Below, one piece after another: positions 43,829 through 53,498 of a DNA stretch of 64,000 nt; the stretch's first letter is position 1; every line of letters starts with the position of its first letter. Made by a program: the position numbers and the translations under genes. Under the pieces are notes generated by a model that saw only the letters and a program-made list of their open reading frames with translations, was not told the DNA's origin and ran no database searches. The stretch spans positions 4,389,659 to 4,453,658 of the forward strand of contig OZ316895.1 of the NCBI GenBank assembly GCA_973895155.1, read 5' to 3'. The DNA is from Marsupella aquatica. Lineage: Eukaryota; Plantae; Marchantiophyta.

Positions 43829-48186
<4,358 letters not shown>

Positions 48187-48879: not shown

Positions 48880-51049
48880 TGTGTTGCCTTTTCCTTAGCT
48901 TAGTTGTTGCTCCTTCTGATTAGATCACGTGATAGTAGGGAGTTACGTACAATGTTTTTCATCCTTTGTAAGTTCTGATATAGATATAGAATGTTCATCC
49001 TGGATATAGATATATAGAATGTCCATCCTGGAACATGCCTTTTTTGTTTTGTCTTGTAGTGATATGTTTTTTATGAAACATGCCTCTTTTGTTTTGTCTT
49101 GTAATGATATGTTTTTTTATTTTATGATAAAAAAAAGTAGGAACATGTAAAGTATATGCCAATAAATTAATATCTCTTAATTAAGAGTGAATGACATAGT
49201 ACACATGCAAAGAAAAGCACATTATGACCAAAAAGTACAAAGGTATTATAGAGTTATGCACATATAGTATAGATTTTCACTTGCTTCTAGGTAGTGATAA
49301 TAAATTCAATTAAAATCATAAATTTTGTAAAAAGAACTTATTAAACCAAATGTGCACATTGTTTAAACTTATTTCTCTCACTCTCATGAGTAAAAAGATA
49401 ATTCATTGAGTGATTGAAAAGGAAAGATTAAACATTTATGAGGGGAGCCAAATATATTCAAATTACTCTAAGTTCACTAAATTAAAAGGGGTCCAAAAGT
49501 TAATTCAAAATCAAACTAATACAAATGATTCACCTAGTTCAGGCACATTAAAATAAAAATACTAAACAGAAAATTTGAATAAGACAAAATTTGAAAGATG
49601 GATTCACCATATAACAGCTTCATAATTGTCTGATATACATTCCAAAATCTTCCCCTCACTTAACTTGAAAGTGGACTGTACACAGCCCTCAAGCTATGGG
49701 CCCTTAGTTATTTTAAAAACTGTCAGAAACGAGTCATGAAAAGGCAGATTAATCTTGATGTTCCACAAGATCTGCTCCCTTTCCTATATGTGAACCCTGC
49801 AAGCATCTACATGTCCCTGTTTTGTCTGCTCCCTTGTTTTGTATGAACCCTTCAAGAGCATGTTTGTTTGTTTGTTTGTTTGTTTTCATTTCAAAGTGTG
49901 GACCTCAAGGGCTGGGAAGTATCATGACATCAAAATCTCACTGAATGGTATCATGACATGAGTCAGTTTGAGGGCTGCAAATTAACAAAGGGCCCATCAC
50001 ATGCGAGTTGGGCCTAAGGGCCACCCACATGTAAGTTGGCTCTAAACCCCACACCAGGATCACAAGAACAAATTTGACTAATGCCCTGAACCAACAACCT
50101 CAATTGCTTGGCCTGGTGCTGCAAATTGACATGTGTGATCACATCCGCCCTCTCCACCCCTCTTTCCACTCTTGTAGCAGAATCAATGGAAGAAGAGGTC
50201 GTCCAGACATGGAACGCCACATCCAAAACTTTACAATCATTGGCATAAGCACCATGGAAATAGCAATCCCGCAAAGTGTTCTCACGATTGTCCCCATAGA
50301 TATTTGGCTGTCAATGTTGCCCAAATGCTCTCGGATGTTGGCAGAAAAGGAAGTTAGGGTTACTACTAGGACCACAAAATGCAGTACAATGAACACGCCA
50401 TTTACTGTGTAAATTGCCGATCGCTGTGAGTCAGAGAGCTCTGGATATAAGAGCCCAGGGAGAATATCTCGCTGCCACTGTAGCCACCACCATATGCATG
50501 TTAACAAATTAGTCATGAGATCCTGATGCAGTCTAGCTAGCCTTTCATCGAAGTGCTACGTATTTACAACAACCATATCCTCTCAGTTTGTATATCGCAA
50601 CAAGGGTTGGCTTTTGTAAGCTATTCACCTTTCTAGAGGAAAGCAGCAACAAATTAGAATAAAGAGTTCATTGGTTTGACAGGGAAGAGACTGCTGATTG
50701 CAAGCTAAGCCAGGCTAACTCCTAGTGATTGTTCTTTCTAGGGCTAATTGTAGCATGCATGGTTGCCACAAATAGGAAATAATTGAAATAAGGTTCAAGG
50801 GGTGATGTAGCTACAAGTACCTTGCCCTCAACATGTTTAGCAAAAGTACGTAAATATTGGTAGGCAGCCAATGACCTGTCACTGGTTGGCACACGGTGAA
50901 ATGGTCAGCATCAGTCTGAGAACCTTGCACATCGAACCTCGCTGATGCTTCTGGGACTACAACACCCTTGAAATATTTCTGCGAGACATGCCATTGATAA
51001 CAAATCAGAACCTGTAACTAAGGTCAAAATGAAGCCTTAAGTCTCCAAT

Positions 51050-51432
51050 CATTAGTACTTTTAACAACATGGACCGGTTAGGAGTTGAACATAGGACCTC
51101 CTAGTGTGCTCTACCAGTGTCCTACAGGGCCCCCTTCATGCCTGCACCTTGTCTCTGGTTTAGGTGTGGTTTATTTTCAACACCCTCCCTTGAGCCACAC
51201 TTGCTTCAAGAGAGATTCCTTATATGCATAATTTCTTTGGCTCTGATACCATGTCGGAACTTTAAATAAAATGGACCAGCTAAAAATTGAACCCTAGAAC
51301 CTCCAGTGTACATCGTAATGCTCTACCACTGAGCTACAAGCCCTTTCATCCCTCCACCATCTCATCTCTGGTCTCTGGTTGAAGTGTGTTGCACCATCTC
51401 ATCCCTGGTTTAAGTGTGTTTTATTTCCAACA
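51050..51432 (-). mobile_element. Miniature LTR retroelement (TRIM) with a tRNA-like cassette in each LTR
   Basis: On the minus strand: 5' LTR 51432-51252 (TGTTGGAAATAAA...GTTCCGACA), PBS TGGTATCAGAGC (51251-51240), ~50 bp internal sequence, PPT AAGGGAGGG (51191-51183), and 3' LTR 51182-~51050 (TGTTGAAAATAAA...). No TSD is recognisable. Confidence 0.85.
51272..51343 (-). pseudogene. tRNA-like sequence inside the 5' LTR of the TRIM
   Basis: GGGCTTGTAGCTCAGTGGTAGAGCATTACGATGTACACTGGAGGTTCTAGGGTTCAATTTTTAGCTGGTCCA has a canonical A-box/D-arm, a GGTTCAA T-loop and a partly pairing acceptor stem, followed by TTTT. The anticodon arm is degenerate. A second, more decayed copy lies at ~51070-51132. 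Confidence 0.75.
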
Positions 51433-51842
51433 CTGACAAATCTCAGCAGTGCATTTAATGTTAATGAAACTCTGTATACTTGTTGCTAGGAAATCTACTG
51501 TAGTACCTTGAAAAAGTAATCACTTATGCAGGCAATTAAGTGCACATCAGTAAATATCAAATTGCTTGGGTCAGTCTGAATCAAAGTTCCTCTCCTTAAA
51601 AAATTGAGACAATTATTACAGTGGATCCAACACGCCATTGAAAAGTATCATAGTGTACAAAGATAAATCAATATCATCGCAAGGTTCCCAAAGAAACAAA
51701 AATGTACTTCTAAAGTCTAGACTTCACCAACACCTGGCTTTTTGTGGCTAGGCCATCAATTCATGACGAAAGACAAGATTGAGGCTCATAATGAGCCTCC
51801 CGTACCTTTTTGCCGCCCGCTGCCGGCACTTGCTGCCCTAAT

Positions 51843-52001
51843 TTTTTTCAAAGTCATATTTTTTCTAAGTGACTAGAGTGTGAATGATCCCCACTTTTGG
51901 GTGGGATGAATGACAAAACCATCTTTTGTTGCTCACCAGATTCAAACCTGAGACCTGTTGCATCCCAAAGGAGCTGCTCTACCATGATCCAACCTTGGGG
52001 C
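51843..52001 (-). mobile_element. tRNA(Pro)-like SINE with A-tail
   Basis: The minus-strand head GCCCCAAGGTTGGATCATGGTAGAGCAGCTCCTTTGGGATGCAACAGGTCTCAGGTTTGAATCTGG has A/B-box-like motifs and a TTTGGGA loop. It is followed by a short body and an oligo-A tail. Weakly similar flanks are CACTTGCTGCCC / CAATTGGTGTCC. Confidence 0.6.
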
Positions 52002-53498
52002 AATTGGTGTCCAGGCTGATTCGCTCTAGGTATTTAACCACATACTAATGTCAGAAATACTGGGCAACGGGCAGTCACGTACGGGGCTAATCAATGTTAA
52101 TCACATTGATTGGCCTCGATCTTGCCTTTCATTCTTAATATCTTGTGACCAAGCATTGATGATAGAATTATTGTGAACCATCATTACCAACAAGTGAAAA
52201 TGGGCAACAGATCTATGCTCTAGAGTGAATATTTTGAGATGTTCTCAACGTCACCAATTGTAAGATTCCATCGTCCGCACTCAATGAGCATCTCAGCATA
52301 TATTCTCCAAAGATTTAGGGAGAGGTGTAACGAAGAGGATGCTTACCAGATATACTTTGCGCCCTTCACAAAGTCCATATGTGGTCCACTGTCTTGACTT
52401 TCATAACAAAGAAAAGTGAAAGTTTCAAATAGCCAAGGCAACCAACATTGCTTTTGGCCACACGAGACCCATGTTTTGAGCATATGAGTCTTCTGGCTGG
52501 AATTGGAAGTGGACGATAGCTGCAGATTGTGGAAAAACACTAATTCCATTGCAGGAATTCGGTCAGGCAGTAGTTTTGAGACTCCTGGATTGCAAATTTT
52601 GTAAAGGGTGTCATTGATATCCACGTCCCATCCGGATATAAGTAGAAGACTATGGCCGCTTTCTAATAAATTGTCAAATGTTTCGCAAGATATAAGCTGG
52701 ATGGAGTTTGCATAGAATCATTCTAGCGGTACCTGTCAAACTAACTCGTCCATATAATTTCAAACTTTGACCAATTTCTAGATTGTCACTAGCTTTCAGT
52801 AGCACGCTAATCAAGGAAAAGAAATGGTCCTGAACATACCTTCCGTAGGTATTCTCCCTTGTTTCCTAGTACTACTTCACCAGAATCGTCATGCAGATAT
52901 TCCAGTTGGTAGGACTCCAGGAGCCCCCATACCCAAGTCAAACTATCCATCCTTTCTCTTGAACACCACCAGCCAAAAACAATACTGGACGACGAAATCA
53001 ATTTCAGTGAGCATAGTTATGATTGTAATGGTTGGCCGACTGTCACGGAAGGGCGCTATTTCGATCGTTGGCCGCGTGAGAACTGGACTTGAAGTCGGCT
53101 GCCTCCTGGTCCGAAGATTCCCAAAATTTTGTTAAATTTTGCAGGTGTATAAGGGAAATTCAATTCCAAACCGTGTACTCTTACTAGCCAAAACAGCCCT
53201 GAGCACACACGTGCTGAGATTTTTATCATTGATTGATTTCTTTTGTGTGCCTACTCAACAATCTGAAACAGATTCGCAAAGCTGATCGTCTTGCCCCATC
53301 TTCGTTGCAGTGTAGGCGGTAACCCTAAGAGACACATCCCCTAGAGAGGTTCTAAGCTATTATTCCCTAATTCAAGTTGGTGTGGGATTTTGCTCTGGCA
53401 GTGGTATTTAGGGGATCAACGACAAAGTCTAAGTGAAACAGCTGCCGAGGGAAGTTGCTTGGTTGGAATCCTCACCTCGAATTCCTGATTCGGTGGCC

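What the first reader, a model, noticed from the sequence alone, without database searches (positions are those of the whole stretch)
51050..51432. Miniature LTR retroelement whose LTRs each embed a tRNA-like Pol III gene: a tRNA analogue of Cassandra
Seen directly: two related LTRs (181 bp and ~133 bp), both starting TGTTGRAAATAAA on the minus strand. A perfect tRNA-iMet PBS (TGGTATCAGAGC) follows the ...CA of the 5' LTR, a PPT (AAGGGAGGG) precedes the 3' LTR, and only 69 bp separate the LTRs. Each LTR contains a tRNA-shaped cassette in sense orientation (A-box TAGCTCAGTGGTAGAGC, GTTCAA B-box, acceptor-like ends ...GGTCCA). Established: Cassandra TRIMs carry 5S rRNA internal Pol III promoters in their LTRs. 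Inference: this is a TRIM family that captured a tRNA promoter instead, making it an LTR/SINE hybrid that may be transcribed by Pol III and mobilised by a copia partner. The cassette sits at the same position in both LTRs, so it predates the retrotransposition. I do not know of a described equivalent but could not search. This copy is old, with diverged LTRs, a decayed 3' terminus and no TSD.
Basis: partly seen in the sequence, partly recalled or inferred. Interest (0 to 1): 0.85.

Follow-up and report, generated by a model that had tools for sequence, protein, structure and literature searches.

The report
Helenus-type mini retrotransposon in a liverwort
This is an old, decayed copy of a tiny gene-less jumping element whose two end repeats each carry a tRNA look-alike, a design published in 2024 under the name Helenus, here in what is likely a leafy liverwort, a plant group for which we found no earlier record.

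Summary
The anatomy is real: minus-strand 5' LTR (181 bp), iMet-type PBS, 69-bp interior, PPT, 3' LTR (~133 bp), LTRs 80% alike, no TSD. Only the 5' LTR keeps intact A/B boxes and scores as tRNA (Rfam 28.9 bits, cut-off 29); the 3' cassette is decayed. It is a repeat family, not a local duplication: other, diverged contigs of the same organisms carry cassette-PBS-interior-PPT and PPT-LTR junctions. The host is likely a leafy liverwort (HSF 86% to Calypogeia). The design is not new: Kojima 2024 (PMC10886601) named TRIMs with tRNA-derived LTRs Helenus, listing one plant family, in Selaginella. This scan has also met Helenus-type elements on other DNA. New here: a liverwort host, and a by-eye resemblance to the Selaginella family that may mean an old land-plant lineage. 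Pol III transcription and the copia partner are inferred, untested. This copy has gained T-runs that would stop Pol III early. Verdict: new member of a known kind, modest interest.

The parts
51050..51432 (-). whole element, 383 bp, non-coding LTR-interior-LTR
51252..51432 (-). 5' LTR, 181 bp, TG...CA, 8-bp terminal inverted repeat with 1 mismatch
   Evidence: other contigs read the matching letter at 51255
51345..51420 (-). U3-like part of the 5' LTR with a ~37-bp local duplication that this copy's 3' LTR and other contigs lack
   Evidence: (D2, D9); short U3 in other contigs, tables 5c and 7
51272..51343 (-). tRNA-like cassette, 72 nt; box A 51336-51326, box B 51293-51284; D arm pairs, anticodon and T stems broken
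   Evidence: Rfam RF00005 28.9 bits, E 0.002, E 0.065 window-wide; ARAGORN negative
51268..51286 (-). two T-runs on the sense strand (T5 from 51286, T4 from 51271), likely acquired after insertion; would end a Pol III transcript early
   Evidence: other contigs and the 3' LTR read other letters at 51284, 51283, 51270
51240..51251 (-). primer-binding site TGGTATCAGAGC, directly after the LTR's CA
   Evidence: same 12-mer given as the Cassandra PBS in PMC7215508; iMet assignment is established knowledge, recalled
51183..51251 (-). interior, 69 bp (about 57 bp in another copy)
   Evidence: table 8, X1 record 4 and X2 record 11 (12 gap letters)
51183..51191 (-). polypurine tract AAGGGAGGG abutting the 3' LTR
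51050..51182 (-). 3' LTR, ~133 bp; last 8 bp match the 5' LTR at 3 of 8, so the end is decayed or lost
51070..51131 (-). decayed tRNA-like cassette of the 3' LTR, 62 nt, boxes A and B mutated
   Evidence: no Rfam match

Best explanation
This is an old, decayed copy of a multi-copy, non-coding miniature LTR retrotransposon (TRIM) whose LTRs carry a tRNA-derived sequence, that is a Helenus-type element, in what is likely a leafy liverwort. Shown: two related LTRs, PBS, PPT, tRNA-like cassette at the same place in both LTRs, and further diverged copies with the same parts. Inferred: in active copies RNA polymerase III would start at the 5' end of the cassette, run through the LTR tail, PBS, interior, PPT and 3' LTR, and stop at the first T-run in the flank; an autonomous LTR retrotransposon, likely a copia, would package the RNA; initiator tRNA-Met would prime at the PBS, the cassette-plus-tail would serve as the repeat (R) for strand transfer, the PPT would prime the second strand, and integrase would use the TG...CA ends. 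This copy is likely dead: its 5' cassette has gained T5 and T4 runs, its 3' boxes are mutated and its 3' end is lost.
For: Structure. tRNA likeness. Family: on the 441 bp laid, 125 contigs of run X1 and 193 of X2 fit, only 12 and 16 of them at 99% or more; summed depth is about 19 in the flank of X1 against 2321 at the PPT/LTR junction and 3692 at box A (a rough sign of many copies, not a copy number). Of the 8 X1 pieces listed, 5 are diverged from the window: record 5 (84% alike) runs from the cassette start through PBS and interior to the PPT (also seen in X2 and X3), record 4 has PBS, a shorter interior and PPT, records 2 and 3 put the PPT-LTR junction in other contigs of 5066 and 1858 nt, record 7 covers the cassette. 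At 7 of 11 places where other contigs differ from the 5' LTR, the 3' LTR carries their letter, as expected if both LTRs decayed from one family sequence. Definition and precedent: PMC10886601. Host: HSF exon 86% to Calypogeia fissa, 61% Marchantia, 49% Sphagnum.
Against: No TSD and no intact 3' end in this copy, so a single clean insertion is not proven. The 3' cassette fails the box A and box B motifs and Rfam. The 5' cassette is 0.1 bit under Rfam's gathering score and has E 0.065 window-wide. The depth peak at box A may include true tRNA genes and SINEs, and the end of the interior resembles box A so that some contigs are laid at the wrong place (joints going back from ~51200). No contig with two complete LTRs was among the 16 listed pieces (365 not shown). 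The PBS type does not by itself tell copia from gypsy partners. The host rests on one gene.
Confidence: 0.88

Rival explanations
1. Same family, but this locus is a chimera or remnant of a tandem array: the two LTRs come from two different copies joined by recombination, which would explain the missing TSD and the 20% LTR difference without great age.
For: No TSD; LTRs differ by several indels. Tandem arrays are described for Cassandra (PMC7215508, passages) and for the Helenus family LTR-11_DR (PMC10886601).
Against: The 5' LTR's differences from other contigs are mostly private (7 of 11 shared by the 3' LTR and other contigs); the lost 3' terminus alone explains the missing TSD; both junctions are shared by runs of organism labels A and B.
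Confidence: 0.2
2. An ordinary Pol II-driven TRIM that carries a passive, fossil tRNA or SINE piece in its LTR; the cassette plays no part in transcription.
For: No transcript data; Kojima states that Pol III function of Helenus is not validated. The 3' LTR's boxes are mutated.
Against: The cassette fills about half of a ~130-bp LTR and leaves ~55 bp upstream; box A is the part that most other contigs share (table 2), while the anticodon arm varies in length; other contigs lack the T-runs of this copy at 51284, 51283 and 51270.
Confidence: 0.15
3. A single-locus accident: local duplication of a tRNA pseudogene or SINE with chance PBS and PPT look-alikes.
For: Single copy inside the window; no TSD.
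Against: Diverged contigs carry cassette-PBS-interior-PPT in the same order; a 12-nt exact PBS directly after CA and an 8-bp terminal inverted repeat are not expected from a duplication.
Confidence: 0.02

Closest known systems
Helenus (TRIMp3), Kojima 2024, Biology 13:119, PMC10886601 (whole main text read; supplement searched for terms)
   Same: Non-coding TRIM under 1 kb, tRNA-derived sequence with boxes A (TRGCY..YGG) and B (GGTTC) in the LTRs, PBS and PPT between them; length 383 bp within the stated 311-1263 bp; cassette unlikely to be a working tRNA.
   Different: Host: the paper lists no bryophyte; its only plant is Selaginella moellendorffii. No TSD could be shown here. Three short motifs of this element and its exact PBS have 0 matches in the supplement's sequences (line breaks can hide matches), so it is not one of the listed families.
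Helenus-1_SMo (Selaginella moellendorffii; LTR 120 bp, interior 85 bp, TSD 5 bp)
   Same: Compared by eye only: similar LTR size, TGTT start and TTCCAACA-type end, a 72-nt cassette at the same place with an identical 18-nt box A stretch and about 44 of 55 letters alike outside the anticodon arm, 3'-end iMet-type PBS (1 letter different), GTGTGGC shortly before the PPT. The 11-mer TAGGAGGTCCT of the 3' LTR occurs once in the supplement, in this family.
   Different: Anticodon arm, U3 and most of the interior are unlike by eye; a separate family. tRNA conservation alone could give much of the likeness.
Cassandra TRIMs (PMC7215508, passages; as described in PMC10886601)
   Same: TRIM with a Pol III-type internal promoter in each LTR; the same PBS 12-mer.
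   Different: Carries 5S rRNA (boxes A and C), not tRNA; no 5S match here; 565-860 bp; reported from vascular plants; transcription by Pol III shown for Cassandra, not here.
tRNA-derived SINEs (SINE2)
   Same: tRNA-like head with boxes A and B; proposed source of the cassette (PMC10886601).
   Different: SINEs have no LTRs, PBS or PPT and move by target-primed reverse transcription; no tail follows the cassette here.

Membership tests
Helenus (TRIMp3) | TRIM: two LTRs, under 1000 bp, no coding capacity | tested here: met
   383 bp, LTRs 80% alike; no stop-to-stop frame of 60 aa or more overlaps the element
Helenus (TRIMp3) | tRNA-derived sequence in the LTRs with box A (TRGCY, YGG) and box B (GGTTC) | tested here: met
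   5' LTR has both boxes and an Rfam tRNA match of 28.9 bits; the 3' LTR holds the homologous but decayed cassette; other contigs share it
Helenus (TRIMp3) | PBS after the 5' LTR and PPT before the 3' LTR | tested here: met
   also in diverged contigs (table 8)
Helenus (TRIMp3) | Repeated, dispersed family | tested here: met
   125 and 193 contigs laid on 441 bp, 97 and 150 of them under 95% alike; junction pieces in other long contigs
Helenus (TRIMp3) | 5-bp TSD (plant and fungal families) | tested here: inconclusive
   None at this copy, whose 3' end is decayed; flanks of other copies could not be paired, no genome held
Helenus (TRIMp3) | Transcription by RNA polymerase III (proposed, not validated, in the paper) | not testable with these tools
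   needs RNA 5' ends or Pol III occupancy
Helenus-1_SMo (same family) | Sequence likeness over LTR and interior (the paper clusters at 75% identity and coverage) | tested here: inconclusive
   by eye only: cassette alike, U3 and interior unlike; no alignment was run; treated as a separate family
Cassandra | 5S rRNA-derived sequence in the LTRs | tested here: not met
   no 5S match among Rfam hits
functional tRNA gene | complete cloverleaf with anticodon and T stems | tested here: not met
   ARAGORN 0 genes; Rfam alignment skips the anticodon arm; fold is not a cloverleaf
SINE2 | tRNA head followed by body and tail, without LTR, PBS, PPT | tested here: not met
   cassette lies inside TG...CA repeats with PBS and PPT

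The most novel reading that the evidence does not exclude
The liverwort family and the Selaginella Helenus descend from one capture of a tRNA promoter in an early land plant: a Pol III-driven TRIM lineage more than 400 million years old, older than Cassandra, kept in seed-free plants and so far unseen in seed plants.
Probability: 0.25. Interest if true: 0.5.

Novelty: new member of a known kind. Interest (0 to 1): 0.27.

Why it matters
It extends Helenus from one lycophyte to a second, deeply separated plant lineage, and gives a multi-copy plant family on which the open point of the Helenus paper (is it really made by Pol III, and by which partner is it moved) could be tested. Such elements also inflate tRNA gene counts in genome annotation, as shown for rust fungi in PMC10886601. 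It does not add a new kind of element.

Tried and rejected
No whole genome held, so no copy count, TSD survey or partner search. Pattern scans: cassette-plus-PBS pattern, 0 hits in viral and metagenome contigs; LTR-start-plus-box-A pattern, 0 in viral, 16 in metagenome contigs, all 16 ordinary tRNA genes without PBS or second LTR: chance. No RNA holder listed; no evidence either way on expression. Parent tRNA: blastn against phages gave weak matches to tRNAs of many isotypes, none covering 80%; undetermined. The acceptor stem's G3-U70 and A73 would recall tRNA-Ala (recalled, untested). Pfam found no retroelement domain in 37 of the 45 long frames of the window and 34 of the 57 shorter frames of 44-58.5 kb that were submitted, so no partner or host element was seen nearby. 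RPL26 exact look-up empty. Gao et al. preprint 10.1101/010850: term search found none of six terms. Scan notes by sequence and by place: nothing. No age in years is given, for want of a liverwort rate from a call. The likeness to Helenus-1_SMo was not aligned or scored, so common descent stays open.

Full report
Observation. On the minus strand the element reads 5' LTR 51432-51252 (181 bp, TG...CA), PBS 51251-51240, a 69-bp interior ending in the PPT 51191-51183, and a 3' LTR from 51182 to about 51050. The LTR start motif occurs twice and the PBS once in the whole window. The LTRs align with score 94 against a maximum of 33 for 500 random stretches; 104 of 130 aligned columns are identical, K2P 0.24, or 0.20 without the last 8 columns, which match at only 3 of 8. 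No TSD was found for any 3' end between 51075 and 50991. The 5' LTR's extra length comes mainly from a local duplication of about 37 bp.

The cassette. Rfam matches 51343-51272 to the tRNA model end to end at 28.9 bits (gathering 29; E 0.002 for 2 kb, 0.065 for the window). D arm and box A are intact, the anticodon arm is not aligned and the T stem is broken. ARAGORN finds nothing. The 3' LTR holds the homologous cassette with both boxes mutated and 10 nt missing; it gives no Rfam match. So 'each LTR has the A box' is too strong, but the cassette is at the same place in both.

Family. No genome is held. Four contig sets of two studies and two organism labels hold the stretch (one may be the window's source). 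On 441 bp, 125 contigs of X1 and 193 of X2 were laid, 12 and 16 of them at 99% or more. Summed depth in X1 is about 19 in the flank, 2321 at the PPT/LTR junction, 3692 at box A and 326 at the PBS; the tool warns that this is no copy number, and tRNA genes or mis-laid pieces may add to it. The listed pieces (16 of 381) are more telling: a contig 84% alike spans cassette, LTR end, PBS, interior and PPT (X1, X2; X3); another has PBS, an interior 12 bp shorter and PPT; two X1 contigs of 5066 and 1858 nt carry the PPT-LTR junction elsewhere. Joints and loose ends show LTR starts about 25-30 letters from the cassette, so the usual LTR is near 130 bp. At 7 of 11 places where other contigs differ from the 5' LTR, the 3' LTR has their letter; one of these makes the 8-bp terminal inverted repeat perfect. 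The insertion is shared by both organism labels. No listed contig shows two whole LTRs or a TSD.

Host. The window holds HSF, RPL26, ATAD3 and RIO genes. The large HSF exon is 86% identical to a Calypogeia fissa protein, 61% to Marchantia, 54% to Riccia, 49% to Sphagnum, which points to a leafy liverwort. This rests on one gene.

Mechanism. Shown: the parts and their repetition. Inferred from the LTR cycle and from Cassandra: Pol III would start at the cassette in the 5' LTR and must read to the 3' LTR without meeting a T-run; since any terminator inside the LTR would be met in the 5' copy first, the likely stop is in the flank (here T4 from 51029). Cassette and tail would then form the repeat for strand transfer; initiator tRNA-Met would prime at the PBS. 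This predicts no T-runs in active copies. This copy has T5 from 51286 and T4 from 51271, but the 3' LTR and many other contigs read other letters there (51283: depth 49 of 90 in X1, 152 of 271 in X2; 51284: 29 of 90 and 154 of 271; 51270: 73 of 116 and 480 of 667; totals include the locus itself). The runs are thus likely later damage and the copy likely dead. A copia partner is likely (Kojima ties fungal Helenus with 5-bp TSDs to Copia) but is not shown.

Known kind. Kojima 2024 (PMC10886601; whole main text read; supplement searched by terms) defines Helenus as TRIMs with tRNA-derived sequence in their LTRs, in fungi, animals and one plant, Selaginella moellendorffii (LTR 120, interior 85, TSD 5). 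The element meets that definition; the TSD test is inconclusive and Pol III transcription is unvalidated for Helenus as well. By eye the Selaginella family is the nearest: similar size, ends, cassette (about 44 of 55 letters outside the anticodon arm) and PBS; an 11-mer of the 3' cassette occurs once in the supplement, in that family. U3, anticodon arm and interior differ, and a wasp family shows nearly the same box A, so common descent is open. Cassandra has the same PBS 12-mer but 5S sequence (PMC7215508, passages).

Not in print as far as searched. Six searches (listings only, first 20 rows where more) gave no Helenus in a bryophyte; the later papers that name Helenus only cite it (PMC13570524 and PMC12859917, passages; PMC10946416 seen in listings only). 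Repbase and Dfam could not be searched. Earlier notes of this scan report Helenus-type elements in fungi, a diatom and animals; they are unchecked and were seen after my reading was set.

Verdict. Real feature, right idea, known kind. New host lineage; interest 0.27.

Noticed in passing
window 51759-52139: A second high-copy repeat next to the element, with 27-bp terminal inverted repeats (78% complementary) and many diverged contigs laid on it: likely a MITE of about 380 bp. Inside, 51993-51925 on the minus strand is a weak, decayed tRNA-like stretch (box A- and box B-like; alignment score 36 to the cassette; no Rfam match); several other contigs skip parts of it.
   Followed up: partly
contigs laid at window 51220 (table 7): 8-9 contigs per run continue from the interior into a PBS-like stretch that differs from the window's PBS at one or two letters (consensus agreement only 0.61-0.64): perhaps a subfamily with a variant PBS and a shorter interior.
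   Followed up: no
window 51416-51737: A low-copy repeat in the upstream flank (several contigs about 85-90% alike); the TRIM may have inserted at or near the edge of an older repeat.
   Followed up: no
window 47549-47794 (+): Weak Pfam match to Methyltransf_4 (tRNA m7G46 methyltransferase type; E 0.0003, below cut-off), likely an exon of a host gene 3 kb from the element.
   Followed up: no
window 49650-50560: Stop-free frames of 98-138 aa and a purine-rich stretch on the minus strand that look like the remains of a larger retroelement by eye; no Pfam match.
   Followed up: partly
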